Assembly (NCBI GenBank): GCA_035528115.1
Contig: DATKZF010000003.1
Coordinates: 423,089-487,088 of the forward strand
DNA from: Candidatus Bipolaricaulota bacterium
GTDB taxonomy: Bacteria > Patescibacteriota > Patescibacteriia > UBA11705 > DATKZF01
Length of the DNA stretch: 64,000 nt
Direction: 5' to 3'
The translations under genes and the position numbers were made by a program. Shown in pieces: positions 1,904 through 61,790 of the stretch; within the stretch, counting starts at the first letter, position 1; every line of letters starts with the position of its first letter. The notes beneath the pieces were generated by a model. That model was given only the letters and a program-made list of their open reading frames with translations, was not told the origin of the DNA and made no database searches.

Positions 1904-2026
1904 AGAGATTAGAAACTAGAAACTTGAAATTGGGGAATGGAAATTTGAAACCGGAAATTATCCGCCCGAGGCGGATCCGCCTTTGGCGGAGAAATTGGGG
2001 ATGGAGAAATCTATTCGGAAGAATTA

Positions 2027-2170
2027 GGAAAAGATCTCTCCGCTTCGGTCGAGATGACAACGATGGTTAATTAGGAAAAGATCTCTCCGCTTCGGTCGAG
2101 ATGACAACGATGGTTAATTAGGAAAAAATCTCTCCGCTTCGGCCTGCCCCGAGCAAGGTCGAGGGGTCGA
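2027..2170. repeat. Tandem direct repeat, 3 copies of a 42-bp unit (third copy carries a ~24-bp internal insertion)
   Basis: ttaggaaaagatctctccgcttcggtcgagatgacaacgatggttaa x2, then a variant with cctgccccgagcaaggtcgagggg inserted; each unit contains an atctc...gagat hairpin. The long variant is near-identical in reverse orientation at 51094-51155. Confidence 0.8.
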
Positions 2171-2279
2171 GATGACAACAGCGTCGGCCTTGTTTCTCTG
2201 TTTTCTGTCTCATGTTCTTTTGTTGCGTGTTTCATGATACATGCTTCATGAACATTATAACAAAAGCGGCTCAAGAGAG

Positions 2280-2420
2280 CCACTTTTCTGTGAGAGCGAA
2301 GCGGGCGAGGAAGAGTCCCGACGAATCGGGATGACGACGAGCCCAAGCCGCGCGCAGCCGCACCACCTGCCCCCCGCCCCGAGGGAGGGGGGACAAGGGG
2401 GGAGGGGAGATGAGCTTATT
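2280..2420. other. GC-rich structured island in tig-nfo intergenic region (C/G homopolymer tracts, UUCG-looped hairpin)
   Basis: Local GC far above surroundings; ccccgccccgagggaggggggacaaggggggagggg tracts; cccgaTTCGtcggg hairpin on minus strand. ORFs 2071..2346(-) and 2241..2423(+) are probably artefacts of stop-codon-poor GC-rich DNA. Confidence 0.35.
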
Positions 2421-3731: not shown

Positions 3732-3835
3732 AGGGTTACAAATTATGAATAAATACAAATATTACAAATGGTTGCAAATTATTACAAATATCAAAATATC
3801 TTTTATTCGTAACTTATTTGTAGCATTCCTGCCTG

Positions 3836-3950
3836 CTCCTCGAGTCTGCCTTCGACGGCCCTGAGGGGCCGCTCAGGCCCTCGAAGGGAGCGACCTCGCC
3901 ACTCGGCCGTGAGCTCGTGGCCGAACGGGAGTCGAAGACCGGCAGGCAGG
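3836..3950. repeat. GC-rich palindromic insert bracketed by CCTGCCTGC...GCAGGCAGG (expanded member of the CCTGCCTGCCGGCAGGCAGG element family)
   Basis: cctgcctgctcctcgag...ccggcaggcagg with internal imperfect palindrome cttcgacggccctgagg/ggccgctcaggccctcgaag; sits between tig start and the antiporter gene stop. Confidence 0.55.
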
Positions 3951-5000: not shown

Positions 5001-5265
5001 AATTGGTAACTAATAAAAAGTTTAAAAGGTGGTAGCTGGTAGCTTTTTAGGTAGCCACCTAACCAGGGGATTCATGATACGGGAATAGAGCCCCTTATTT
5101 GATTATAACATAAAAAATCCGGTCGCCGGGAGAGTCAGGTGAATTAACAACACGATCTGTTGTCGCCACTGTTTTTTTCTGCTAAAATAAGATATAGTTG
5201 AATATAGCTTGTAGTTTATTAGGTGGCGATATATTAACCTAACCTCTTAATTTTTATCTTTAAAT

Positions 5266-6060: not shown

Positions 6061-6062
6061 AT

Positions 6063-6150
6063 ATACAAGATTACAGATTTGTGTACAGATTATACGAGAT
6101 AATTTCCAATCTGTATGATCTTGTATGTAAATCTCGTAATCTTGTAACTT
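6063..6150. promoter_or_regulatory. TACRAGAT word array (4 forward then 4 reverse-complement copies) immediately upstream of hup
   Basis: tacaagat, tacagat, gtacagat, tacgagat followed by atctgta, atcttgta, atctcgta, atcttgta; ends 9 nt before the hup ATG. Confidence 0.45.
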
Positions 6151-6158
6151 AAAAAAAT

Positions 6159-10651: not shown

Positions 10652-12832
10652 ATGGCCAGAAGAAAAAGAAAAAAAATAAAAGAAGAGCCCGTTCGCGAAA
10701 AAGAACTTAGCCCCGAGGCAAAAAAGGGGATAGTGGTGGTTTTTATATTCGCCGTTGGCGTGCTTTCCTTTTTGAGCCTGTTGCAAATGGCGGGCAGAAT
10801 AGGGATTTTTATTGATTCCGCTTTAAGCATATTCATCGGTTGGACCAAATACGCCTTTCCCATTTTAATGATCATCTACGCTTATCTTCTGTTTCGAGAT
10901 GAGCGATATCAAATAACCAAAGCCAAATATGTTGGCTTTTTATTTTTTGTTTTGAGCTTTAACGCGCTTTTACATATTTCCTATGCCGCGAGTGAGGCGC
11001 TCGAAATGTCGGCCAGCGGCCTTGGCGGCGGATTCCTGGGATTGGTTTTAAGTTACCCGTTGCAATTTGTGATGGGAAAAATCGCGACGATTGTAATTTT
11101 ATTGGCATTGCTTTTGATCAGCTTGCTTTTAATGTTCAATACTTCCATAAAAAATCTTGTTTTCGGAAATTCTCGATTGGCGTTTTTAAAGCGCCCGTTC
11201 GGAGTGTTATTCGCTCGAAAAGAAGATGAATCATCTGAAGAAGAATCGGAAACGGAGACGGTTGAAAAAGCGACGCAGGAGTCTTCTATTGAAAATGAAG
11301 AACAGGATGAAAAGAAGGTGGCAAAGGAATTAAACGAGTCCGAGGAAACCGCCGTTCAATTTCCCAACAAAGGAATTAAGATTGATTTGCCCCTGACATT
11401 ATTGAATAAAAAAACGAGCAAGCCGACCAGCGGCGACACTAAGGTCGGCATGGAAAAAATACAAAAAACTTTGGAGAATTTCGGTATTGACGTGCAAATG
11501 GAAGGAGTAAGCATCGGACCGACCGTTACTCAGTACACGTTCAAGCCGGCGGAAGGAGTGAAATTATCACGCATTACCGCTTTGAATAATGATTTGGCTT
11601 TGGCGCTGGCCGCCCATCCGCTGAGAATCGAGGCTCCGATACCTGGCAAGTCGCTGGTGGGTATTGAAGTCCCCAATAAGCAAGCGGCCACCGTATGTTT
11701 GCGTGAATTACTGGAAGCTCCGGAATTTAAAACGAGAAAATCCAATTTGGCCCTGACTTTGGGCAAAGACGTTTCGGGCAAGACTTGGGTTTATCCTTTG
11801 GAAAAAATGCCTCATTTGCTGGTGGCCGGCGCGACCGGCTCGGGCAAAAGCGTTTGTTTGAACACCATGATTATCAGTTTGCTTTATCAAAATAATCCGG
11901 ATGATTTGCGCATGATCTTGGTCGATCCCAAGAGAGTGGAGTTCCCCGTATATAACGGCATCCCTCATTTATTATCCCCGGTTATAACGGATGTCACCAA
12001 GACCGTGAATTCACTGCGTTGGGCCATTTCGGAAATGGATAGAAGATATGAGATGCTCGCCAAGAGCAATAAGCGAAATATCGAAGGTTATAACCAAAGC
12101 AACCCGGAAGAAAAATTGCCGTATTTGCTTATTGTGATAGATGAATTGGCGGATTTGATGATTTCCGCCTCGTCGGAAATCGAATCGTCAATCATCAGGT
12201 TGACGCAAATGGCCAGAGCCATCGGCATTCATTTGATCGTGGCCACGCAAAGGCCGTCGGTCGATGTCATTACCGGTTTGATCAAAGCCAATATTCCTGC
12301 CAGAATCGCTTTTAGCGTGGCTTCGCAGACCGATTCTCGAACCATACTTGATTCGTCCGGAGCCGAGAAGTTGCTGGGCAAAGGCGACATGCTTTTTCAA
12401 ACCGCGGAGCTGAGCAAGCCGCGCAGGATCCAAGGAGCCTTTGTCGGAGATGACGAAATAAAGAGAGTGGTTGATTTTCTTAAAGAAGCCAGCGGCGACC
12501 CGGAATATAACGAGTCCGTTACGGAAAAAAACAAAGGAGTTCATACCAGTTTTGATTATAATAATGACGATGGTGATAGCGATGAATTATATGATGACGC
12601 CGTGGAAATAGTCGCTCGCGCGGGCAAAGCCTCCGCCTCCTTGCTTCAACGCCGGCTACGCGTGGGTTATGCCAGAGCGGCTCGTTTGATTGATTTGCTG
12701 GAAGACAATGGCGTGGTCGGCCCGGCTGACGGAGCTCGGCCGCGCGAAGTATTGATGTCACTCGACAAAATGTCCCAAGGAGACGCTCATGAAGCGGCGC
12801 CGACGGAAGATGATGAAGAAAATGAAGAATAG
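10652..12832 (+). CDS. ftsK: DNA translocase FtsK/SpoIIIE
   Basis: 726 aa; N-terminal TM helices, acidic linker, motor domain with Walker A GATGSGKS, and C-terminal gamma winged-helix region LYDDAVEIVARAGKASASLLQRRLRVGYARAARLIDLLE. Confidence 0.9.
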   Translation: MARRKRKKIKEEPVREKELSPEAKKGIVVVFIFAVGVLSFLSLLQMAGRIGIFIDSALSIFIGWTKYAFPILMIIYAYLLFRDERYQITKAKYVGFLFFVLSFNALLHISYAASEALEMSASGLGGGFLGLVLSYPLQFVMGKIATIVILLALLLISLLLMFNTSIKNLVFGNSRLAFLKRPFGVLFARKEDESSEEESETETVEKATQESSIENEEQDEKKVAKELNESEETAVQFPNKGIKIDLPLTLLNKKTSKPTSGDTKVGMEKIQKTLENFGIDVQMEGVSIGPTVTQYTFKPAEGVKLSRITALNNDLALALAAHPLRIEAPIPGKSLVGIEVPNKQAATVCLRELLEAPEFKTRKSNLALTLGKDVSGKTWVYPLEKMPHLLVAGATGSGKSVCLNTMIISLLYQNNPDDLRMILVDPKRVEFPVYNGIPHLLSPVITDVTKTVNSLRWAISEMDRRYEMLAKSNKRNIEGYNQSNPEEKLPYLLIVIDELADLMISASSEIESSIIRLTQMARAIGIHLIVATQRPSVDVITGLIKANIPARIAFSVASQTDSRTILDSSGAEKLLGKGDMLFQTAELSKPRRIQGAFVGDDEIKRVVDFLKEASGDPEYNESVTEKNKGVHTSFDYNNDDGDSDELYDDAVEIVARAGKASASLLQRRLRVGYARAARLIDLLEDNGVVGPADGARPREVLMSLDKMSQGDAHEAAPTEDDEENEE

Positions 12833-15284: not shown

Positions 15285-15372
15285 AGATTACAAGATTACG
15301 AGATTTGCATACGAGATTATACAGATTAACCCGATCTCGTACAATCTGTACACCAATCTGTAATCTCGTAAA
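15285..15372. promoter_or_regulatory. TACRAGAT word array (4 forward then 4 reverse copies) upstream of tsaD
   Basis: tacaagat, tacgagat, tacgagat, tacagat then atctcgta, atctgta, atctgta, atctcgta; ends 9 nt before the tsaD ATG. Confidence 0.45.
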
Positions 15373-15380
15373 TCCAATTT

Positions 15381-16397
15381 ATGAAGATATTAGCCATTGA
15401 AACCTCCTGCGATGAGACCGCGGCTTCAGTCGTTGAAATAAAAAACGGCAAATTCGCGGCTTTGTCCAATACGGTTTCATCTCAAATAAAAACTCACGCC
15501 AAATACGGCGGCGTTATTCCGGAAGTCGCCGGTCGTCTTCATATTGGAAAAATAATTCCGGTGATCGATGAAGCGTTGAGTTCCTCAAAAACGAAAATTG
15601 CCGAATTGAAAGCTTTGGCCGTGGTGTCGGGACCGGGCTTGGCGCCGTCTCTTCGAGTGGGCGTGGAAACGGCCAAAGCTTTGGCTTATGTCTGGCAAAA
15701 GCCGCTGATATCGGTCAATCATTTGGAAGGCCATATCGCGGCCGGTCTTTTTGAAAATAAAAAAGTTGCCATGCCCGCGGTTTGCTTGATCGCGTCCGGC
15801 GGCCATACTTCTTTGATTTATATAAAAAGCTGGGGCGGGTACGAAACAATCGGCCAAACCAGAGACGACGCGGCCGGAGAAGCCTTTGATAAGGTCGCGA
15901 AAATCATGGGACTTGGTTATCCGGGAGGCCCGCTGATTTCCAAATTGGCGGAAAATGGAAAAACCGGCCGATTCAAACTGCCTAGGCCGATGATTGATTC
16001 CGGCGATTTTGACTTTAGCTTTTCCGGTTTGAAAACAGCGGCTCTTTATTTGTATAAATCCAGAAAAACTTGGACTAAAAAAGACAAGGCTGACTTGGCC
16101 GCGGAATTTCAAGACGCGGTGATTGAAGTTTTGGTGGAAAAATCAATGAGCGCCGCGGAAAAATTAAAAGCCAAAAGTTTTATTTTGGGCGGTGGCGTTT
16201 CCGCCAACAAAAAATTGAGAGCAACGCTCAAGCGAGCCGGCCAAGACATCAAGGGCTTGAGCGTTTTTATTCCGCCTTTTGAATTCACCACTGACAACGC
16301 GGCCATGATCGGCGCGGCCGCGTATTTTCATTATAAAAATAAAAATTTTGTTGATCCGTTTGATTTGGTTGCGGAGCCACGATGGAGATTGATTTAA
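15381..16397 (+). CDS. tsaD: tRNA N6-adenosine threonylcarbamoyltransferase TsaD (Kae1/Gcp)
   Basis: 338 aa; MKILAIETSCDETAASV N-terminus, HLEGH metal-binding motif, GGGVSANKKL. Confidence 0.9.
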   Translation: MKILAIETSCDETAASVVEIKNGKFAALSNTVSSQIKTHAKYGGVIPEVAGRLHIGKIIPVIDEALSSSKTKIAELKALAVVSGPGLAPSLRVGVETAKALAYVWQKPLISVNHLEGHIAAGLFENKKVAMPAVCLIASGGHTSLIYIKSWGGYETIGQTRDDAAGEAFDKVAKIMGLGYPGGPLISKLAENGKTGRFKLPRPMIDSGDFDFSFSGLKTAALYLYKSRKTWTKKDKADLAAEFQDAVIEVLVEKSMSAAEKLKAKSFILGGGVSANKKLRATLKRAGQDIKGLSVFIPPFEFTTDNAAMIGAAAYFHYKNKNFVDPFDLVAEPRWRLI

Positions 16398-16401
16398 AAA
16401 T

Positions 16402-16830
16402 ATGGAAAATATTTATGCCGTTAAAACCGAAGCTCAAACCAAAAAAATTGCCGGGGACTTCGCCAAAACTTTGAAAGGCGGGGAAGTGATTTTATTATCC
16501 GGAGATCTGGGCGCGGGCAAGACTTTTTTCGTTCAGGCCGCGGCCAAGGCTTTGGGAGTTAAGGAGCAAGTGACCAGCCCGACTTTTATATTGATGCAAA
16601 TTTACAAAGCGTCCAGAAATAAAATTAAAAACGTTTGTCATATTGACGCTTACAGGCTCGGTTGCGTGAAAGAATTCGAGGCGTCCGGGCTGGATGAATG
16701 TTTGTATCGAGACGACACGGTGTCATTTATCGAATGGGGAGAAAAAGTAAAGACGCTGATGCGCGGAGCGATTGAAATTAATATTGAAATTAAGGAAAAT
16801 GAACGAGTTATAACCATTGATAAAAATTAA
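16402..16830 (+). CDS. tsaE: tRNA threonylcarbamoyladenosine biosynthesis ATPase TsaE (YjeE)
   Basis: 142 aa; P-loop GDLGAGKT, SPTF motif, HIDAYRL. Confidence 0.8.
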   Translation: MENIYAVKTEAQTKKIAGDFAKTLKGGEVILLSGDLGAGKTFFVQAAAKALGVKEQVTSPTFILMQIYKASRNKIKNVCHIDAYRLGCVKEFEASGLDECLYRDDTVSFIEWGEKVKTLMRGAIEINIEIKENERVITIDKN

Positions 16831-20684: not shown

Positions 20685-21770
20685 ATGTCTTTCTCCATAG
20701 GTATTGTAGGTTTGCCAAACGTCGGCAAATCTACTTTGTTTAAAGCCTTAACAAAAAAACAAATCGACATTGCCAATTATCCTTTTTGCACGATCGAGCC
20801 CAACGTGGGTTGCGTCAAAGTGCCGGACGAGCGTTTGGATAAATTGACGATATTTTCAAAATCGGAAAAAACAATCGCGACCACCATTAATTTTGTCGAT
20901 ATTGCCGGCTTGGTCAAGGGCGCGCATAAGGGCGAGGGACTGGGCAACCAGTTTTTGGCCAATATCAGAGAGGCTGACGCCATTTGCCATGTGGTCAGGC
21001 ATTTTACAAAAGGCGACATCATCCATGTCGAAGGCAAAGTCGATCCGGTTTCGGATTTTGAAGTGATTAAGATTGAATTGGTTTTTGCGGATTTGGCCAC
21101 CATAGACAAGCACATCCGCACGGTTGAAAAAAGCTTGAAAAGCACCAAACAAAATCAGGGAAAAGACGAGCGGGCGACTCTCGAGACATTGCAAAAAATA
21201 AAAATGGCTTTGGAGGAAGGAATACCGATCAATAAACAGGGCTTATCCGAAAAAGAGGCCGAGAGTATCAGCCACCTTGATTTATTGACGGCCAAGCCGT
21301 ATTTGATAGTGCTCAACGTCGATGAAGATGATTTGAAAAAAGATATTGAAATTCCTGAATTCAAAGATGAAACGGTCATTAAAATTTGCGCTCAGCTCGA
21401 AGCGGATTTGGCTGACATGCCGTCGGAAGAAGTTGATTTATATCTTAAGGAAATCGGCGAGGCGAATACCGGCCTTGATAAAATTATCGTGGCCGCTTAT
21501 GAATTATTGAATTTGATCACTTTTCTTACCACCGGGCCGGATGAAACCAGAGCTTGGACCATTACGAAAGGGACATTGGCTCCGCAAGCGGCCGGGAAAA
21601 TTCATACTGATTTTGAAAGAGGCTTTATCGCGGCCGAAGTCATCAATTGGCAAGAATTGCTTGATGCCGGTTCGGAAGCCGCGGCCAAAGAAAAGGGTTT
21701 GCTTAGGCTGGAAGGCAAGGTGTATGAAGTTAAGGATGGAGATGTGTGCGTGTTTCGCTTCAACGTATAG
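20685..21770 (+). CDS. ychF: Ribosome-binding ATPase YchF (Obg family GTPase)
   Basis: 361 aa; G1 GLPNVGKST, DIAGLVKGA, C-terminal TGS domain. Confidence 0.9.
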   Translation: MSFSIGIVGLPNVGKSTLFKALTKKQIDIANYPFCTIEPNVGCVKVPDERLDKLTIFSKSEKTIATTINFVDIAGLVKGAHKGEGLGNQFLANIREADAICHVVRHFTKGDIIHVEGKVDPVSDFEVIKIELVFADLATIDKHIRTVEKSLKSTKQNQGKDERATLETLQKIKMALEEGIPINKQGLSEKEAESISHLDLLTAKPYLIVLNVDEDDLKKDIEIPEFKDETVIKICAQLEADLADMPSEEVDLYLKEIGEANTGLDKIIVAAYELLNLITFLTTGPDETRAWTITKGTLAPQAAGKIHTDFERGFIAAEVINWQELLDAGSEAAAKEKGLLRLEGKVYEVKDGDVCVFRFNV

Positions 21771-25985: not shown

Positions 25986-27644
<1,659 letters not shown>

Positions 27645-27697
27645 TTATGATTAAATTTAGTTACCAATGGTTACGAATTTACAAATTGGACAAATAC

Positions 27698-27982: not shown

Positions 27983-27991
27983 ATTTTGAAG

Positions 27992-28066
27992 CTACAAGAT
28001 GTACAAGATTTATATACAAGATATTACGAGATTACAAGATTTAGTATTTTGTACTATCTCGTACGC
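27992..28066. promoter_or_regulatory. TACRAGAT word array upstream of groES; no CIRCE element detected
   Basis: tacaagat x3, tacgagat, tacaagat then atctcgta. The HrcA operator consensus TTAGCACTC-N9-GAGTGCTAA is absent from 27983-28195. Confidence 0.4.
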
Positions 28067-33829: not shown

Positions 33830-34001
33830 TCGTTACAAATTTACGAATTTCGTACACCTGCCTGCCGGCAGGCAGGAATATTACAAATGGTTACGAATTA
33901 TTTTCAGCACGGATTTGTTATGAACGTTTTCTAATTTGTACCATTATTATGATATTGTACTATCCTGTATGCGAATCTCGTACATCTCGTAACCAATAAT
34001 T

Positions 34002-34890: not shown

Positions 34891-34976
34891 GTCATGGAGC
34901 ATGAAACATGAATCATGGATCAAATGAAATAGCCGTGTCAGGCAGGCCAAACAATATCTAAATTAATTTTTTTAAG

Positions 34977-35065
34977 TAAATAAAAAATCGCCACTGCTTT
35001 TATGAGATCCCTGCCTGCCTGCCGGCAGGCAGGCTTCCGCGAGGATGACAATGAGGTGGTGATTT
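34977..35065. repeat. Composite palindromic terminator element (A-tract / stem / CCTGCCTGCCGGCAGGCAGG / GATGACA box / stem / T-tract) between convergent efp and SH3b gene
   Basis: aaaaaatcgccac...ccctgcctgcctgccggcaggcagg...gaggatgacaatgag gtggtgattttttg. Confidence 0.6.
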
Positions 35066-35079
35066 TTTGTTTGTTCAAT

Positions 35080-36833: not shown

Positions 36834-37065
36834 GTGTATGATAAATTTTCAGTGTTCGGTTCAAAAATCACAAAATGACGTTGTTATTATAGCAATATCA
36901 AAACATCTAGTCAATATGCCCAAAGTCGGCAAATTACTTGAAAAATTTCAATAAATCAGTTAGAATGAGTAAGAACTAATTATCATGAAACATGAATCAT
37001 GGATCATGAATCATTGATCAAGGCGAATTGATACATGATATGTGATACATGACACGTGAAAAAAT

Positions 37066-39398: not shown

Positions 39399-39511
39399 GG
39401 GTTACGAATTACGAATTTTGTACGAATGTTACAAATGGTTACTAATAAGGTAGATATGAAAAAAGCGTTCCGAAAGGGGCGCTTTTTGAGTTGTGATTTA
39501 TCGCCAAGCGG

Positions 39512-41069: not shown

Positions 41070-41084
41070 AAATTTTATATAAAA

Positions 41085-41150
41085 AAACCGTCACCGCTGC
41101 CTGCCGGCAGAATTTCTCGGGAATGACAGACAGGTGATGGCTTTTTGCTT
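41085..41150. repeat. Composite palindromic terminator element (family member)
   Basis: aaaaaaaccgtcaccgCTGCCTGCCGGCAGaatttctcGGGAATGACAGACAGGTGatggctttttg. Confidence 0.6.
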
Positions 41151-42367: not shown

Positions 42368-42384
42368 CGTCCTCATCGCACTCA

Positions 42385-42470
42385 AAAAAAACCGCCACTG
42401 CTTTGAGATTCCCGCCTGCCTGCCGGCAGGCTTTCGCGGGAATGACAGACAGGTGTGGCGGTTTTTTATT
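42385..42470. repeat. Composite palindromic terminator element (best-preserved copy) between convergent rSAM gene and rny
   Basis: aaaaaaaccgccac tgctttgagattcccg CCTGCCTGCCGGCAGGC tttcgcGGGAATGACAGACAGGTG tggcggtttttt; outer stem accgccac/gtggcggt, inner stem ttcccgc/gcgggaa, central palindrome. Confidence 0.65.
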
Positions 42471-42520
42471 GAAGCTAATTGTTTCATGATCCATGATTCA
42501 TGTTCCATGCTCCATGACGT

Positions 42521-45516: not shown

Positions 45517-45729
45517 GTAAATGTCTCCTTTCAAATATAAGATGGTAATAGTTTAGCAGATTTTTAGGGGGTGTCAAGAAGGGCTGTTTTGAGGCAAAGG
45601 AGGTAGCTTGTAGCTTGTTAGCTTATTAGGTGAAATTAAAGCATAAAGCCACCTACAAGCTCACTCCAAATATTTACTTTCTTGAAAAAATATGATAAAT
45701 TAAACCCAGTTAATTCACTCAAAGATTTT

Positions 45730-49564: not shown

Positions 49565-49636
49565 TTTGGCGCGTGTCATGGTAGAGACGCGCCACGGCGC
49601 GTCTCTACCAACCGGCGGCGGATCGCCGCCGTCGGT

Positions 49637-50921: not shown

Positions 50922-51055
50922 ATTTTCAGGGGTTGGTTAATATCGTTGATTTATAATAGCATTATTTCATATAAAGATAAAGGCGGGTTTTTTTTAGGTT
51001 GTTAGGTTTTTAGGGAGGTAGGTTCTTAGTATCTTGTTGGCCTTTCTAATAACCT

Positions 51056-51340
51056 AAAAACCTACAAGCTACCACCGCCTATTGCCTCTCCGGCCACCCA
51101 TCGTTGTCATCTCGACCCCTCGACTTCGCTCGGGGCATGCCGTAGTGGAGAGATCCCTTTTTGTAATCAATGAGGGATTTCTCCATTCCGCCCTTCGGGG
51201 CTCCCTGCCTACCCTGCCTGCCGGCAGGCAGGCGGCAGGCAGGCGGGAATCCACAAAGCAGCGGTAGAATCATAAGCGGCGGCTTAAATCCACCTAATAA
51301 GCTAATAAGCTACAAGCTACTACGCCTATTGCCTCTCCTC
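51056..51340. mobile_element. MITE-like non-coding insert (about 215 bp) flanked by about 30-bp direct repeats
   Basis: Direct repeats ctacaagctaccaccgcctattgcctctcc (51060-51090) and ctacaagctactacgcctattgcctctcc (51310-51340). The intervening sequence contains the reverse copy of the 2111-2170 unit (ccatcgttgtcatctcgacccctcgacttcgctcggggcatgccgtagtggagagatc) and ccctgcctgccggcaggcaggcggcaggcagg. Confidence 0.5.
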
Positions 51341-51364: not shown

Positions 51365-52669
51365 ATGAAGTCTCTAATAAAAAAATTCATTCCCAAAAGC
51401 GTTTTATCGCTTTACCACAAATTTTTGGCGATTGTGGCGCGTTTTGCGTTCGGCAATCCTTCTGAAAAAATGATTGTCATCGGCGTGACCGGCACGAACG
51501 GCAAGTCATCGACCGTAAAATTGATCGCCAAGGCCCTGGCGAGCGAAGGCGCCAAAGTCGGTTACACCTCCACTTCGGAATTTCAAATCGGCGACAAAGA
51601 ATGGCTCAACAAAACGAAAATGACCATGCTCGGCCGTTTTCAATTGCAAAAACTTTTGAAAAAAATGGTTGACGCGGGTTGCCGATACGCGGTGGTGGAA
51701 GTTTCTTCGCAAGGCGTGGAGCAATTTCGCCATTTTGGCATTAATTTCGATTACGCTATTTTTACGAATTTAACTCCGGAGCACATCGAAGCTCATGGAG
51801 GTTTTGAAAATTACAAAAAAGCCAAAGGCAAATTTTTCAAATTCCTGACTTTGCGGCCGCGAAAGAAAATTAACGGTCAAGAAATCAAAAAAGTCATGGT
51901 CGTCAATCGAGACGACGAGCACTCCGATTATTTCCTGTCTTTTCCGGCTGACAAAAAATTGATTTTCAGCGCCCAAGACAAATTAAGCGACGTTTTTGCG
52001 GAAAATATTAAAGTCTCGACTTTGGGCACCTCGTTTTCCGTTAAAGGCCTTGAAATAAATTTGCGTTTGCTGGGCAAGTTCAATGTTTACAACAGTTTGC
52101 CCGCGATCGCCATCGGTTTGAACGAAGGACTTGATTTGGAAAAAATAAAAGCCGCGCTCGAGGCCGCGAAAGTCATTCCCGGACGCATGGAATTGATAGA
52201 TGAGGGTCAGCCGTTTTCGGTCATTGTCGATTACGCGCCCGAGCCGTACAGCTTGGCGAAATTATATGAGACGCTTGATTTGATGCAAAAAAATAAATTG
52301 ATTCACGTCTTGGGTTCGTGCGGGGGCGGACGCGATGTGGCCCGTCGGCCGATTTTGGGCAAGATGGCCGGCGAAAAGGCGGACATTGTCATTGTCACCA
52401 ATGAAGATCCGTACGATGATGATCCTCAAAAAATAATTGATGAAGTGGCGGCCGGCGCGATCGGGGTTGGGAAAAAATTGAATGAAAATCTTTTTAAGAT
52501 ATTGGACAGAAAAGAAGCCATTGCCAAGGCCATGAATTTGGCCGGCGCCGGGGATTTGGTGGTTTTGACCGGCAAGGGTTCGGAGCAGGCGATTGTGGTG
52601 AAGAACAATAAGAAGATGCCGTGGGATGAGAGGGAGGCGGCGAGGGAGGTTTTGAGGAGGCGGTGTTAA
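51365..52669 (+). CDS. Mur ligase family protein (MurE/MurF-like UDP-N-acetylmuramoyl-peptide ligase)
   Basis: VIGVTGTNGKSST P-loop, DYAIFTNLTPEHIEAHGGFENYKKAKGKFF, C-terminal Mur_ligase_C. ATG 51365 preferred over the track start 51170, which reads through the MITE-like element. Confidence 0.8.
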   Translation: MKSLIKKFIPKSVLSLYHKFLAIVARFAFGNPSEKMIVIGVTGTNGKSSTVKLIAKALASEGAKVGYTSTSEFQIGDKEWLNKTKMTMLGRFQLQKLLKKMVDAGCRYAVVEVSSQGVEQFRHFGINFDYAIFTNLTPEHIEAHGGFENYKKAKGKFFKFLTLRPRKKINGQEIKKVMVVNRDDEHSDYFLSFPADKKLIFSAQDKLSDVFAENIKVSTLGTSFSVKGLEINLRLLGKFNVYNSLPAIAIGLNEGLDLEKIKAALEAAKVIPGRMELIDEGQPFSVIVDYAPEPYSLAKLYETLDLMQKNKLIHVLGSCGGGRDVARRPILGKMAGEKADIVIVTNEDPYDDDPQKIIDEVAAGAIGVGKKLNENLFKILDRKEAIAKAMNLAGAGDLVVLTGKGSEQAIVVKNNKKMPWDEREAAREVLRRRC

Positions 52670-54839: not shown

Positions 54840-54885
54840 TGGACTTGTTAAAATTGATAAGTACCGGATATAGCGACAAGATAAC

Positions 54886-54962
54886 TACGCAAAGAAGAAC
54901 AATAAAAAGATGCCGTGGGATGAGAGGGAGGTGGCGAGGGAGTGTTTGAGGAGGCGGGGGAA
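54886..54962 (+). repeat. Degenerate copy 2 of the Mur-ligase 3' terminus (att-like remnant)
   Basis: aagaacaataaaaagatgccgtgggatgagagggaggtggcgagggagtgtttgaggaggcggggg versus native 52600-52665. Confidence 0.7.
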
Positions 54963-55615: not shown

Positions 55616-55715
55616 ATGGAAGGCGCGGAGCAGGCGATTGTGGTTAAGAATAATAAAAAGATGCCGTGGGATGAGAGGGAGGCGGCGAGGGAGGTTTTGA
55701 GGAAAATCAACAAAT
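55616..55715 (+). repeat. Degenerate copy 3 of the Mur-ligase 3' terminus (about 85 bp, att-like remnant)
   Basis: ggagcaggcgattgtggttaagaataataaaaagatgccgtgggatgagagggaggcggcgagggaggttttgagg versus native 52572-52660. Confidence 0.7.
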
Positions 55716-55769: not shown

Positions 55770-58631
55770 ATGACAGGAAATTTTAAAATAGAAATCAGAC
55801 ATTTAGTTAAAAATTTTAAAGAGCAAGATGGTCAGAGACGGTCTGAAGAAGATATCCAAACCAGCTTTACTATTAAATTAATGGAGGTTCTCGGCTGGGA
55901 CAGCTCTCATTGGGCAATAAATACCGGTCAGGACGTAAAAACAGGCAAAAAGCCTGATATTGTTTTAAAATCAGGATCTTCAAAATTGATAGTTATCGAA
56001 TCAAAAGATGCCAAGAAAAAAGATATGCTTGACGGCTCATACGGCAACAAAACTTTTAAGCAGCAACTATTTAATTATTGCAAAGCGGAAGGGGTGGCCT
56101 GGGGTATTTTGACTAATTTTATTGAATGGCGATTGTACAGTGTTCATCATAGTCGATTATACAAAGAGAAGAAATATGCTTTTTACGATTTGTTATGGCC
56201 TAACGCAGATAAGAGCAGTTACGTGGATTTATTGTCCGATGAGGGGATGCAATTTCTAAATTTAATTTCAAAAGAAAATTTAATTAAAAAGAATGGAATT
56301 ATTGATCCTGATCCGATATATTATCCTGAACAGCTAGATATAGAGCAAGAAAAAATAAAAAAAGAATTTTTCAGCAAGATAAAAAATTGGCGCGAGAATT
56401 TACGAAAATTTATAAATAAAAATTATTCTAAATATACCCTTGAGGAAGTTGATTTAATGGCGCAGAAGATATTAGATCGAATGATTTTTATTGATATTTG
56501 TCATGATAAGGGCATTGTTTATGAAAATCATCTTCGTGCAATATTATCTTCAAAATTGCCCAAGTACGAAGAGTTGAAGGAGAAATTTAAGGTAATGAAC
56601 GAGAAGTTCAACACTGAGCTTTTTGCTCAAAATACTATTGATGAAATTAAAATTAGCAACGATGTAATAATCCCTATTATAGAAGAATTAGACGAAATCG
56701 ATTTTAGCAAACTTAGTGTTCACATTATTGGGGAAGTATATGAAAATTATCTGGGAGAGATAGCCAAGGGGAACGTGAAGAAAGAAGATGTAATGAAGGC
56801 AAAACAAAAAAATAAACGAAAATCGCAAGGTATATACTATACTCCTGATTACATTGTTGATTATATTGTCAAAAAGACAGTGGGTGAATTGTTGAAAAAA
56901 GCTAAAACAAAAGAGGATATAGAGAAAATTAGAGTTTTGGACCCTGCTTGCGGTTCGGGTTCGTTTTTAATTCGTGCTTTTGATGAGTTTTTTGAGGCAT
57001 ACAAGAGAGTAATGAAGGAAGGTGGGCTTTTAGGTTTTGAAATAAAGAAAAAAATATTGCAAAACAACCTTTTCGGCGTTGATTTAGATCCCAAAGCTGT
57101 GGAAATCGCCAAGCTAAACCTAATGATTAAGGCGCTTGAAGGCGCGACGCCAAACGAATTAAGAGGCGATCATTTGCTACCTAACTTGAATCTAAATATT
57201 CGTTGTGGCAATTCCTTGATTGGAGGGGAGAAGTTAAAAGAAAAGGAAAATAATTTGAATCTGTTTGACAAGTTTGACGATGAAATAAAAAAATTAATTG
57301 ATTTTAAGGAGCGGTTTCGTAAATCCATCTCTAATGATGAAAAAAAAGAAATTCTGAACGAAATTAATATATTTGAGGGATACATTAATAAAGAAGTAAA
57401 TGATAGCCTGTATAAATATTTCAAGAATTTGAATAGAATTAGGCCATTCAATTACACAATCGCTTTTTGTGAAATATTCAAAGACGGTGGATTTGATGCG
57501 GTGATTGGAAATCCGCCATATATTAGACCACATAGAATTGACACAAGTATAAAAGGATATTTATGGGAAAATTATTATTCATTCAAGGCAAAATCCGATA
57601 TCTACGTATGTTTCATTGAAAATGCAATACAACTCACGAAAAAAGGCGGACTAATTTCATATATAGTTTCAAACACATGGCTATCATTAGAGAGTTTCGA
57701 AAATCTACGAACTTTCATCCTAAACAATACAAAAATAAAAATGTTGATTAACCCTCCAGCAAAGGTTTTTAGTGGAGCGCAAGTGTCGACGATTGTTTTT
57801 GTTTTTGAAAAAGATGAATCTAAGGGAAATAAAATAATTGTAGGGGGATTATCTCAAAACGCATTCAAACTCGAGGGTGCAATAAAACAAACGCTGTTCA
57901 ATAAAACACACAAAAAAGTTTTCGATTTATCTTTACTAGATAAACAGGTTTTTTCAATAAAGGTTGCAACGACCCCGTTAAAAAAAGTCGCGAAATTTTA
58001 CTATGGAATAAAAACCGGAGATGATGAGAAATTTTTGACTTTCAAACCCAAAGATAAAAATAATTATAAACAACTTTTAAGAAGAAGTGATTTTAATCGA
58101 TATCTAATAGATTACAAAGGTGAGTATGTTTGGTACGCACCAGAATTAATGAAAGAAAATAAAGCCACCGCTCGGCCAGGAGAACCAAAAAGATTCGATG
58201 AAACAAAAATTATTATAACTGACATTGCAAAAAAAATAATTGCGACATTGGATTTACGACATTATTATATTAAAGATGCCTTAATCCTTCATCAAATAAA
58301 AAATGGTTATGATTTAAGGTATTTATTAGGTGTTATAAATTCAAAATTATTAAATTTTATCTACACCAAGACATTTAGAAATTTGAGCGTAGCTAAAAAC
58401 GCTTTTATGCAATTGCCAATTAAGATAATAGAGATTAGTGAAGAAAAAGCTTTGTATAACACAATTGTTCGCTTGGTAGACCAATTGCTTAAATTAAATA
58501 AGACTACAGAATCCCGCGAAATAAACAAAACAAAAATCCAGGCGCTGGATTATGAAATTGATAAGATGGTGTATAAGCTTTATGGGTTGGGGGAGTCTGA
58601 GATAAAAACAATTGAACAAGCTGTAAAATAA
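55770..58631 (+). CDS. Type IIG restriction-modification enzyme (MmeI/Eco57I-like: N-terminal PD-ExK nuclease, gamma-class N6-adenine methyltransferase, C-terminal TRD)
   Basis: 953 aa; nuclease motif KPDIVL...IVIESKD; MTase motif I VLDPACGSGSFLI and motif IV IGNPPYI. Confidence 0.8.
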   Translation: MTGNFKIEIRHLVKNFKEQDGQRRSEEDIQTSFTIKLMEVLGWDSSHWAINTGQDVKTGKKPDIVLKSGSSKLIVIESKDAKKKDMLDGSYGNKTFKQQLFNYCKAEGVAWGILTNFIEWRLYSVHHSRLYKEKKYAFYDLLWPNADKSSYVDLLSDEGMQFLNLISKENLIKKNGIIDPDPIYYPEQLDIEQEKIKKEFFSKIKNWRENLRKFINKNYSKYTLEEVDLMAQKILDRMIFIDICHDKGIVYENHLRAILSSKLPKYEELKEKFKVMNEKFNTELFAQNTIDEIKISNDVIIPIIEELDEIDFSKLSVHIIGEVYENYLGEIAKGNVKKEDVMKAKQKNKRKSQGIYYTPDYIVDYIVKKTVGELLKKAKTKEDIEKIRVLDPACGSGSFLIRAFDEFFEAYKRVMKEGGLLGFEIKKKILQNNLFGVDLDPKAVEIAKLNLMIKALEGATPNELRGDHLLPNLNLNIRCGNSLIGGEKLKEKENNLNLFDKFDDEIKKLIDFKERFRKSISNDEKKEILNEINIFEGYINKEVNDSLYKYFKNLNRIRPFNYTIAFCEIFKDGGFDAVIGNPPYIRPHRIDTSIKGYLWENYYSFKAKSDIYVCFIENAIQLTKKGGLISYIVSNTWLSLESFENLRTFILNNTKIKMLINPPAKVFSGAQVSTIVFVFEKDESKGNKIIVGGLSQNAFKLEGAIKQTLFNKTHKKVFDLSLLDKQVFSIKVATTPLKKVAKFYYGIKTGDDEKFLTFKPKDKNNYKQLLRRSDFNRYLIDYKGEYVWYAPELMKENKATARPGEPKRFDETKIIITDIAKKIIATLDLRHYYIKDALILHQIKNGYDLRYLLGVINSKLLNFIYTKTFRNLSVAKNAFMQLPIKIIEISEEKALYNTIVRLVDQLLKLNKTTESREINKTKIQALDYEIDKMVYKLYGLGESEIKTIEQAVK

Positions 58632-60343: not shown

Positions 60344-60375
60344 ATCATTCAAGGAGATGCACAATATTTTTGTTA

Positions 60376-60462
60376 TTTATCGCCTAAAATGGTCGGTTTG
60401 AATCCTATGTATTAGTTTGCACTAGCTAAAAAACCTCAATGTTTGCCGCCAAAAACATCCAC
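60376..60462 (+). repeat. 87-bp direct repeat, copy A (upstream of rhuM-fic)
   Basis: ttatttatcgcctaaaatggtcggtttgaatcctatgtattagtttgcactagctaaaaaacctcaatgtttgccgccaaaaacat, followed by terminator-like ccccgccccgcgcgggagattttttt (60463-60487). Confidence 0.7.
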
Positions 60463-61579: not shown

Positions 61580-61607
61580 CTCCCGCCTCCGCGCGGGAGT
61601 TTTTTTT
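61580..61607 (+). terminator. Rho-independent terminator after rhuM-fic
   Basis: ctcccgcctccgcgcgggagtttttttt. Confidence 0.6.
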
Positions 61608-61681
61608 GTTATTTACCGCCTAAAATGCTCGATTTGAATCCAAAGTATTAGTTTGCATTAGCTAAAAAACCTCAATACCTC
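61595..61681 (+). repeat. 87-bp direct repeat, copy B (downstream of rhuM-fic, upstream of rpoB promoter)
   Basis: ttatttaccgcctaaaatgctcgatttgaatccaaagtattagtttgcattagctaaaaaacctcaatacctcccgccaaaaacat; about 85% identical to copy A. Confidence 0.7.
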
Positions 61682-61790
61682 CCGCCAAAAACATTTGTCA
61701 AATTTTTTGTGGATAAGGTGGGAGTTGGCGATCGGAGGAGGGCGGAAATTAGTCTAAATTTAGCTAAATGCAGTGGCCTGCGCCTTGCCC

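What the first reader, a model, noticed from the sequence alone, without database searches (positions are those of the whole stretch)
42385..42470. REP-like composite palindromic terminator element family (CCTGCCTGCCGGCAGGCAGG core plus GGAATGACAGACAGGTG box)
Copies occur at 34977-35065, 41085-41150 and 42385-42470, with partial or expanded copies at 3836-3950, 33851-33870 and 51206-51250. Each has an outer A-tract/8-bp stem/T-tract that resembles a bidirectional intrinsic terminator. It encloses an inner stem (ttcccgc/gcgggaa), a perfect GC palindrome and a conserved GATGACA-containing box. The copies sit almost exclusively at 3' ends of genes, often between convergent genes, and are GC-rich islands in an AT-rich genome. 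The GATGACA box also appears in the 42-bp tandem repeats at 2027-2170, which links the families.
Basis: seen in the sequence. Interest (0 to 1): 0.6.

Follow-up and report, generated by a model that had tools for sequence, protein, structure and literature searches.

The report
Nested hairpin repeats inside transcription terminators
Three transcription terminators in this small candidate-phyla-radiation bacterial genome carry a known kind of hairpin repeat in their loops (the target of Ssn single-strand DNA nucleases), and that repeat carries a 20-base palindrome that turns up as a precise insert in many bacterial phyla and apparently has not been described.

Summary
Three about 85-nt composite elements (34982-35068, 41081-41146, 42384-42467) and several partial relatives exist and are far beyond chance.

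They are three nested layers.
1. The outer layer is an A-tract / 7-bp stem / T-tract, an ordinary bidirectional intrinsic terminator. At the RNase Y 3' end, relatives have the same terminator with a 4-6 nt loop.
2. The inner hairpin plus 'GATGACA box', read on the minus strand, is tGTCATTCCCGCG...GCGGGAATC. This is the NTS/SRM repeat of Chenal et al. 2025, the ssDNA target of small GIY-YIG Ssn nucleases.
3. The loop holds the palindrome CCTGCCTGCCGGCAGGCAGG ('P1').

A species-wide genome scan shows P1 inside SRM-type hairpins in 15 or more phylum-level lineages. It behaves there as a precise 20-bp indel. In viral contigs it also occurs outside SRMs, including in a tRNA-Met variable loop.

The terminator nesting is specific to this lineage, the non-terminator copies are not at gene 3' ends, and no RAYT or Ssn gene lies in the 84 kb I could read.

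The kind is known. The P1 loop insert and the terminator nesting are new variants. What makes or moves P1 is unknown.

The parts
42384..42467 (+). Composite copy C. It contains an A-tract (42384-42391), outer stem CCGCCAC (42392-42398) / GTGGCGG (42455-42461) and a T-tract (42462-42467). It lies between the convergent radical-SAM gene (+, ends 42367) and the RNase Y gene (-, ends 42521).
   Evidence: The orthologous RNase Y terminator in relatives has a short loop.
42407..42446 (-). NTS/SRM-type hairpin of copy C. It reads GTCATTCCCGCG aaag [CCTGCCGGCAGGCAGG] CGGGAATC. Removing the 16-nt P1 remnant (42415-42430) leaves GTCATTCCCGCGAAAGCGGGAATC.
   Evidence: The P1-less sequence occurs in other genomes.
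34982..35068 (+). Composite copy A. Its outer stem is TCGCCAC (34988-34994) / GTGGTGA (35056-35062) with A- and T-tracts. It lies between convergent efp (+, ends 34890) and an SH3-domain gene (-, ends 35080). It holds an SRM-like hairpin on the minus strand (35006-35049) and an expanded P1 (35010-35033).
41081..41146 (+). Composite copy B. Its outer stem is CCGTCAC (41088-41094) / GTGATGG (41134-41140). It lies downstream of the DUF1361 gene (+) and upstream of the radical-SAM gene (+). The SRM has lost its 3' arm (minus-strand sense). P1 remnant is at 41097-41110.
33857..33876 (.). Bare P1 palindrome CCTGCCTGCCGGCAGGCAGG. It sits inside a TTACGAAT/TTACAAAT simple-repeat array between ssb and rpsR.
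3828..3950 (+). P1 halves (CCTGCCTGC ... CCGGCAGGCAGG) bracketing a 105-nt GC-rich structured insert. It lies between the Na/Ca-exchanger gene and tig. A second copy, 92% identical, lies about 4.5 kb left of the window start (L138:16326-16452).
51185..51264 (+). Degenerate type-1 hairpin ATTCCGCC...GCGGGAATC. It lacks the GTC head and has an expanded, duplicated P1 (exact 20-mer at 51213-51232). It shares the 3' flank AAAGCAGCGG with copies A and C. It has no terminator tracts and lies between divergent rbfA and a Mur-ligase gene.
51106..51155 (+). Type-2 SRM-like hairpin GTCATCTCGA[...]GGAGAGATC with a 24-nt GC-rich loop insert.
2022..2180 (-). Three tandem 47-nt units, each holding the type-2 hairpin GTCATCTCGACCGAAGCGGAGAGATC. 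The third unit has the same kind of 24-nt loop insert. The array lies between tig and an AP-endonuclease gene.
2314..2335 (-). Short SRM-like hairpin GTCATCCCGAttcgTCGGGACTC.
   Evidence: A weak, single instance.

Best explanation
Each of the three full elements is a Rho-independent, bidirectional terminator. Its loop has been occupied by a roughly 55-nt selfish or neutral composite repeat.

The repeat is an Ssn-related hairpin (NTS/SRM type). Read on the minus strand it is GTCAT + ATTCCCGCG arm ... GCGGGAAT arm + C. Its own loop carries a 16-24-nt copy of the palindrome P1, (CCTG)n CC|GG (CAGG)n.

Shown:
- The three-layer anatomy.
- The near-exact match of arms and flanks to the published NTS consensus.
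- Relatives have the RNase Y terminator without the insert.
- P1 behaves as a precise indel in such hairpins in many phyla.

Inferred:
- As RNA, the whole element folds into one long stem that ends directly at the U-tract. Termination would then be kept, which is why terminator loops tolerate the insert.
- As single-stranded minus-strand DNA, the inner hairpin would be a substrate for a small GIY-YIG Ssn-type nuclease. That nuclease cuts a few bases 5' of GTCAT. In Neisseria it trims incoming transforming DNA.
- The copies spread by duplication or recombination of a unit that reaches at least from CAC to GTG of the outer stem.
For: Anatomy and fold.

Match to the published repeat:
- NTS = CGTCATTCCCGCGMAVGCGGGAATCYRG. 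The GTC head and the C after the palindrome are the critical bases, and loop extensions are tolerated (PMC11893778).
- Copy C without its P1 remnant matches 25 of 28 NTS positions, including all the critical ones.

Orthologous RNase Y terminators:
- L004 reads CCGCCCgaaaGGGCGG and L006 reads CCGCCaaaataGGCGG. They align on both sides of a 54-nt gap relative to the window.
- The orthologous 21-kb stretches of three relatives lack the composite.

Outer stems: in A and B they pair with G-U on the plus strand only. Two positions covary among the three copies (by eye).

P1 in SRM hairpins: at least 120 stretches in 15 or more phylum-level lineages, against about 2 expected. Deleting P1 recreates P1-less hairpins that exist elsewhere, for 25 of 78.

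Nuclease link: small GIY-YIG genes lie within 4 kb of 6 of 120 P1-SRM loci, one directly abutting the hairpin. One relative (L006) has an 84-aa GIY-YIG gene flanked by SRM-like hairpins.
Against: - No Ssn or other GIY-YIG gene was found in the window or in the 20 kb of flanks read. No close homologue of the relative's gene sits on a contig of this genome's size. Only about 14% of the 604-kb contig could be read.
- The published SRM search pattern gives 0 hits in the window. The loops are too long and the last position differs.
- At site A, the orthologous terminator of the nearest relative has an unrelated stem. A, B and C share their outer-stem sequence, and copy D shares the AAAGCAGYGG flank without a terminator. 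Part of the outer stem therefore travels with the repeat, and 'insertion into a pre-existing loop' is demonstrated for site C only.
- Terminator activity and nuclease cleavage are untested.
- Only three full copies exist, so the covariation evidence is thin.
Confidence: 0.6

Rival explanations
1. The whole about 85-nt unit, A-tract and T-tract included, is a miniature inverted-repeat transposable element. It brings its own bidirectional terminator wherever it lands, as Correia elements in Neisseria bring promoters and terminators.
For: A, B and C share the outer-stem sequence in register (YCGYCAC/GTGRYGR). The similarity runs from A-tract to T-tract. The stem at site A differs from the orthologous terminator in L004. 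All three full copies are in terminator form, against 2 of 107 P1-SRM hairpins in other genomes.
Against: No target-site duplication is seen at any of the three. No transposase lies in 84 kb. At site C, the CCGCC/GGCGG stem and its flanks are orthologous to the plain terminators of relatives. A/T tracts are low-complexity and expected at any terminator.
Confidence: 0.2
2. These are simply long-stemmed terminators that grew by local palindrome extension (template switching in quasi-palindromes). No mobility or trans-acting nuclease is involved.
For: Every layer is palindromic. Ordinary terminators of the same A-tract/stem/T-tract style are common in the window. L004 has another terminator-like stem around an unrelated 52-nt GC-rich insert.
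Against: The inner modules are not local inventions. The same hairpin arms and flanks, and the same 20-mer, occur in unrelated phyla. The GTCAT flank is asymmetric, which palindrome extension does not produce.
Confidence: 0.07
3. The elements encode or form a functional RNA (a 3'-UTR-derived small RNA or a cis-regulatory structure) and are conserved for that role.
For: The fold is very stable (z = -5.7). G-U pairs favour the plus-strand RNA. The location is at 3' ends.
Against: No Rfam family matches, even at E up to 1. The elements are absent from orthologous sites in relatives. The three host genes are unrelated. The published partner of this hairpin acts on ssDNA and does not bind RNA.
Confidence: 0.08

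Closest known systems
NTS / Ssn-related motifs (SRM), including Neisseria dRS3 (Chenal et al. 2025, Nat Commun 16:2388, PMC11893778)
   Same: Copy C has the same 5' head (GTCAT), the same palindromic arms (ATTCCCGC/GCGGGAAT) and the same C after the palindrome. The repeat is oriented and extragenic, present in several sequence types per genome, and found across phyla. Small GIY-YIG genes lie near some P1-bearing copies in other genomes.
   Different: The loop is 20-28 nt because it holds P1, whereas the published pattern allows about 5, and that pattern gives 0 hits here. The copies sit inside terminator stems. Copy number is low (about 9 SRM-like hairpins in 84 kb). No ssn gene has been seen so far in this genome. 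The phylum (Patescibacteria) is not mentioned in the paper's main text.
REP/BIME elements with RAYT (IS200/IS605-like Y1) transposases
   Same: Both are short extragenic imperfect palindromes, often at gene 3' ends and in mosaic or nested arrangements. Both are recognised as ssDNA hairpins with an asymmetric conserved head.
   Different: The head is GTCAT, not GTAG. No RAYT or Y1 transposase gene lies in the 84 kb read. The associated enzyme family, where known, is GIY-YIG and not HUH.
Bidirectional intrinsic (Rho-independent) terminators
   Same: Both have an A-tract, a GC-rich 7-bp stem and a T-tract directly after the stem. Copies A and C lie between convergent genes, and copy B lies after a gene's 3' end. 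The style is the same as the plain terminators of this genome at 14696, 17863, 25940 and 49535.
   Different: The loop is about 55 nt and is itself a two-tier hairpin, instead of 3-9 nt.
Correia elements / NIMEs of Neisseria and other bacterial MITEs
   Same: Both are small repeats that can carry transcription signals and are built from inverted repeats. NIMEs are bounded by dRS3.
   Different: There is no TA or other target duplication, no IHF-site architecture, and a different size and sequence.
Mobile GC clusters of yeast mitochondria and Rickettsia palindromic elements
   Same: Both are short GC-rich palindromic inserts dispersed in AT-richer DNA. They are sometimes nested and sometimes sit inside RNA genes.
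   Different: The sequences and hosts are unrelated. Those elements are 30-150 nt. P1 is 20 nt and identical across phyla.

Membership tests
NTS/SRM (Ssn-related hairpin repeats) | Conserved oriented 5' head HGTCWY immediately before the palindrome | tested here: met
   On the minus strand the head is tGTCAT in copies A, B and C and in all four type-2 hairpins. Copy D (51185) lacks it.
NTS/SRM (Ssn-related hairpin repeats) | Palindromic arms of NTS type (ATTCCCGCG / GCGGGAAT), followed by the C that is critical for binding | tested here: met
   Copy C is exact. Copy A is a variant (ATCCTCGCG / CAGGGAT + C). Copy B has lost the 3' arm. Copy D reads ATTCCGCC / GCGGGAAT + C (consensus).
NTS/SRM (Ssn-related hairpin repeats) | Match to the published degenerate pattern HGTCWYN(0-2)YYVSBRHN(0-5)WNVSBRGN(0-2)RNCYNB | tested here: not met
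   There are 0 hits in the window. Copy C fails through loop length and, after P1 removal, through the last position only (by hand).
NTS/SRM (Ssn-related hairpin repeats) | An Ssn (single-domain GIY-YIG, cd10448) gene in the genome, typically flanked by the repeats | tested here: inconclusive
   None was found in the window plus 20 kb of flanks (tblastn and HMM). The rest of the 604-kb contig could not be read. Relative L006 has a small GIY-YIG gene whose closest solved structures are UPF0213 proteins.
NTS/SRM (Ssn-related hairpin repeats) | Binding and cleavage of the repeat as ssDNA by the cognate Ssn | not testable with these tools
   This needs purified protein and oligonucleotides.
REP / RAYT | GTAG/CTAC head next to the palindrome, and a RAYT (Y1 transposase) gene | tested here: not met
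   The head is GTCAT. No Y1_Tnp domain appears among the gene calls of L001, L138 and L139. Genome coverage is partial.
Intrinsic terminator | GC-rich stem directly followed by a U-tract, located after a gene's 3' end | tested here: met
   The match is sequence-level only.
Intrinsic terminator | Transcripts end at the U-tract | not testable with these tools
   This needs Term-seq or 3'-end mapping.
MITE | Terminal inverted repeats plus a target-site duplication | tested here: not met
   Inverted ends exist, since the whole element is a palindrome. No direct repeat flanks A, B or C. None flanks P1 in 39 independent sites.
Any Rfam RNA family | Covariance-model match | tested here: not met
   Only tRNA-Glu matches, at the gathering threshold and at E up to 1.

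The most novel reading that the evidence does not exclude
P1 (CCTGCCTGCCGGCAGGCAGG) is an undescribed, pan-bacterial 20-bp palindromic 'nano-element'. It is gained and lost as a precise unit without target duplication. It is found in the loops of Ssn-related hairpins, in a tRNA variable loop, inside 7-8-nt tandem arrays and on viral contigs. In this genome its halves also serve as the ends of a 105-nt structured element. The Russian-doll architecture seen here (terminator > SRM hairpin > P1 > 105-nt insert) would then record a palindrome-directed insertion process whose enzyme is unknown.
Probability: 0.35. Interest if true: 0.8.

Novelty: new variant of a known kind. Interest (0 to 1): 0.6.

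Why it matters
The finding places Ssn-type hairpin repeats in Patescibacteria. These are small-genome episymbionts that, from general knowledge, depend on taking up foreign DNA. A single-strand DNA nuclease system that trims incoming DNA would be biologically meaningful there.

It shows that terminator loops can act as safe harbours for such repeats. This matters for annotation, because these hairpins generate spurious ORFs such as VIPAKAGIQ, SFPRRRES and AGMT. It also matters for terminator prediction, because loop-length limits miss all three sites.

The 20-bp palindrome is identical from Bacteroidota isolates to CPR, Planctomycetota and viral contigs, and it behaves as a precise indel. That is an unexplained regularity. 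It could point to an unrecognised DNA-insertion or DNA-recognition mechanism.

Tried and rejected
- **Metagenome scan for more copies from the same genome.** I scanned for the 19-mer CACCTGTCTGTCATTCCCG. The collection does not hold this contig. The 8 hits were SRM hairpins of unrelated organisms, compatible with chance among very many SRMs.
- **'P1 inserts into hairpin loops' as a general rule: rejected.** In an unbiased IMG/VR sample, P1 is not enriched at the apex of larger inverted repeats (p = 0.89).
- **Target-site duplication around P1: none**.
- **Published SRM pattern on the window: 0 hits**.
- **Generic GTC+hairpin scan: too noisy.** It gave 80 hits against 49 in shuffles.
- **Search for the nuclease gene.** I ran tblastn and an HMM with four GIY-YIG queries on the window and flanks, and found nothing. 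A homologue search with the relative's GIY-YIG gave 24 proteins, none on a contig of this genome's length.
- **Covariance model of A, B and C on 170 kb: no further full copies**.
- **The 105-nt element.** Two 20-mer scans of IMG/VR and a blastn against all fetched loci found no other copies.
- **Recurrent genes near P1 loci.** Clustering found no transposase, only small GIY-YIG genes and housekeeping or phage genes.
- **Rfam: nothing**.
- **Literature strings.** The P1 string occurs in 0 papers. No supplement text is held for the Ssn paper.
- **Sequencing or assembly artefact for P1: rejected.**
  - The window sequence is identical in JGI, ENA and Logan assemblies.
  - P1 also occurs in cultured-isolate genomes and in MAGs from many different sequencing projects.

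Full report
**Source and context**

The window is part of a 604,316-bp JGI metagenome contig, Ga0307379_10000002 (record position = window + 415333). The same sequence is present in ENA and Logan assemblies.

The genes are bacterial housekeeping genes: tig, efp, ssb, rny, gyrA, rpoB. The RNase Y is closest to unnamed Patescibacteria MAGs at 74-83% identity, and to Kuenenbacteria and Falkowbacteria at about 70-73%. G+C is about 43%.

**Observation check**

The three full copies, the bare palindrome, the split palindrome and the expanded copy are all present.
- The palindrome core has 5 sites against 0.06 expected.
- GATGACAA has 10 sites against 2.1 expected.
- Copy C folds into a single three-tier hairpin of -44.7 kcal/mol, z = -5.7.
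- A covariance model of the three copies scores them at 80-101 bits. It finds no other full-length copy in 170 kb, comprising the window, 16 kb of extra flank and three relatives.
- The tandem array at 2022-2180 has a 47-nt period, not 42.

**Anatomy**

Read on the minus strand, the three copies are:
- C: AAAAAACCGCCAC-acctgtct-GTCATTCCCGCG-aaag-CCTGCCGGCAGGCAGG-CGGGAATC-tcaaagca-GTGGCGGTTTTTT.
- A: the same plan with variant arms (GTCATCCTCGCG ... CAGGGATC) and a longer palindrome.
- B: as C, but it has lost the 3' arm and its flank.

The outer stems are in register. Two positions change on both sides (U-A to C-G and C-G to U-A). In A and B the stems contain G-U pairs that work only on the plus strand, which is the strand of the upstream genes (and by eye). 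With three sequences this is suggestive only.

**Identity of the inner hairpin**

A full-text search for GTCATTCCCGC led to Chenal et al. 2025 (PMC11893778). That paper reports the following.
- The Neisseria Transformation Sequence is CGTCATTCCCGCGMAVGCGGGAATCYRG. It contains dRS3.
- Small single-domain GIY-YIG nucleases (Ssn, cd10448) bind and cut it, only as single-stranded DNA and only on one strand.
- The GTC head is needed for cutting and the C after the palindrome is needed for binding.
- The loop is dispensable and extendable.

Copy C minus its palindrome insert is tGTCATTCCCGCGAAAGCGGGAATCtca. This matches 25 of 28 NTS positions, including all the critical ones.

The tandem units at 2022-2180 and the element at 51106-51155 are a second hairpin type with the same head and tail, GTCATCTCGA...GAGAGATC.

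The hairpin type is very widespread.
- It generates the familiar spurious peptides VIPAKAGIQ, SFPRRRES and AGMT next to small GIY-YIG genes.

The published SRM pattern itself gives no hit in the window, because the loops are too long.

**The palindrome P1**

I scanned one genome per species for CTGCCTGCCGGCAG-N6-20-GRATGACA. About 2 hits are expected by chance.

The hits come from many groups:
- Planctomycetota
- Nitrospirota
- Gammaproteobacteria
- Bacteroidota, including the cultured Mucilaginibacter lappiensis and a Flavivirga isolate
- Ignavibacteria
- Omnitrophota
- Methylomirabilota
- Chloroflexi
- Acidobacteriia
- Fibrobacter
- Saccharibacteria
- a dozen other Patescibacteria groups

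A few hits in GC-rich genomes look like chance.

In these hits the hairpin arms differ by lineage (ATTCCCGCG, ATCCTGAA, ATTCTGAGCG and others), but P1 is invariant. Its position in the hairpin varies, starting 8 to 34 nt after GTC with modes at 11, 14 and 20.

Deleting exactly the 20-mer from 78 P1-bearing hairpins gives a sequence that exists as a P1-less hairpin elsewhere in the same 0.95-Mb sample. This holds for 10 exactly and for 25 with at most one mismatch. An example is GTCATCCTGAA|P1|CTTGTTTCAGGATC.

A scan of IMG/VR for P1 alone found 42 sites in 35 stretches. None is next to a GTCAT head. The contexts include 7-8-nt tandem arrays, other repeats, and the variable loop of a tRNA-Met gene. 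ARAGORN calls that tRNA both with and without the insert.

I tested and rejected two ideas about P1.
- P1 generally sits at the apex of a larger hairpin: not supported.
- P1 carries a target duplication: none found.

In this genome, P1 halves also bracket a 105-nt GC-rich element that has a 92%-identical paralogue. The substitutions between the two copies keep pairing on one strand. The P1 string occurs in none of about 8 million full-text papers searched.

**Relation to the terminator**

Plain terminators of the A-tract/short stem/T-tract style are common in the window.

At the RNase Y 3' end, the relatives L004 and L006 have TTCAAT-AAAA-CCGCC(C)-loop of 4-6 nt-GGCGG-TTTTTTT. These align with the window on both sides of a 54-nt gap. 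At site C the terminator is therefore older than the insert.

At site A, the orthologous terminator of L004 has an unrelated stem. A, B and C share their stem sequence. Copy D shares the AAAGCAGYGG flank without any terminator tracts. The duplicated unit therefore reaches into the outer stem, at least from CAC to GTG. A 'mobile terminator' reading cannot be excluded for A and B.

The terminator nesting is specific to this lineage. Only 2 of 107 P1-SRM hairpins in other genomes have any enclosing A/T-tract stem. Relative L004 does have a terminator-like stem around a different 52-nt GC-rich insert.

**Nuclease partner**

No GIY-YIG gene lies in the window or its flanks. Only about 14% of the contig was readable.

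Relative L006 has an 84-aa GIY-YIG gene between rpmF and tRNA-Glu. Its closest solved structures are UPF0213 proteins. It is flanked by GC-hairpin-interrupted tRNA-Glu-like copies, one of which holds an SRM-like hairpin. That site is empty in the window.

Among the 120 P1-SRM loci from other genomes, 6 have a small GIY-YIG gene within 4 kb, one of them abutting P1. This family was the only recurrent small gene found.

**Verdict**

The most likely account is that intrinsic terminators have had their loops colonised by an Ssn-type hairpin repeat that itself carries P1.
- The sequence identity of the inner hairpin is well supported.
- Terminator function is plausible but untested.
- Nuclease targeting in this organism is inferred.
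- The origin of P1 is unexplained.

The kind (SRM/NTS repeats) is known. The P1 loop module, its cross-phylum precision and the terminator nesting are not described in the literature I could search.

Noticed in passing
L138:15968-15990, 16083-16105, 16703-16725 (same genome, about 4-5 kb left of the window start): Three copies of ATGTTTCACGTGAAACAT, which matches the canonical parS palindrome. The chromosome origin region is probably nearby.
   Followed up: no
window 52581-52658, 54875-54952, 55626-55703; also 60367-60458 and 61603-61694: The 3' end of the Mur-ligase gene is repeated twice downstream (74-96% identity). The repeats bracket low-G+C (30-37%) genes, including an MmeI-like type IIL restriction-modification enzyme (55770-58631) and a Fic/RhuM gene. 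A second 92-nt repeat pair flanks the latter. This looks like integrated islands with att-like duplications.
   Followed up: partly
window intergenic regions, for example 33830-33905, 39399-39445, 27630-27697 (TTACGAAT/TTACAAAT); 34893-34925, 36977-37021, 42480-42520 (CATGAAT); 6061-6158, 15290-15375, 27983-28060 (GATTACAA); 5030-5060, 45600-45660, 51000-51080 (GGTAGCT): Almost every intergenic region carries a degenerate tandem array of 7-8-nt units, with different units in different regions. Relatives L004 and L006 show the same. Bare P1 copies sit inside such arrays, both here and on unrelated IMG/VR contigs.
   Followed up: partly
L006:20880-21460: tRNA-Glu-like pseudo-copies are interrupted in the D-arm and anticodon region by GC-rich hairpins. 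They flank an 84-aa GIY-YIG gene, next to an apparently intact tRNA-Glu.
   Followed up: partly
L284 (IMG/VR contig 3300033148_008720), around 2284-2303: P1 is inserted precisely in the variable loop of a tRNA-Met gene. This gives a 92-nt tRNA with a long extra arm. Removing the 20-mer gives a canonical 72-nt tRNA.
   Followed up: yes
window 1962-1989; L006:21014-21041 and 21409-21436: The double mini-hairpin TCCGCC-aaa-GGCGGA-TCCGCC-tcg-GGCGGA is conserved between this genome and a relative. In the relative it lies beside the GIY-YIG gene.
   Followed up: no
window 49575-49612: A perfect 14-bp hairpin with a GTCAT head (GTCATGGTAGAGACGCGCC-ac-GGCGCGTCTCTACC) lies just after the gyrA terminator. 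It is followed by a second GC hairpin (CGGCGGCGGATCGCCGCCGTCGG).
   Followed up: no
window 2347-2410: A G/C-run block (GGGGGGACAAGGGGGGAGGGGAG opposite CCCCCCGCCCCGAGGGAGGGGGG) lies downstream of tig. It is a possible G-quadruplex or hairpin-forming sequence.
   Followed up: no
L004:11600-11800: Downstream of the relative's RNase Y terminator lies a string of other GC-rich palindromic modules. They include CTTCGCTAAAGCTTCGG-type hairpins, also seen in L006 and L138, and a terminator-like stem enclosing a 52-nt insert. A bare P1 follows at 11846-11865.
   Followed up: partly
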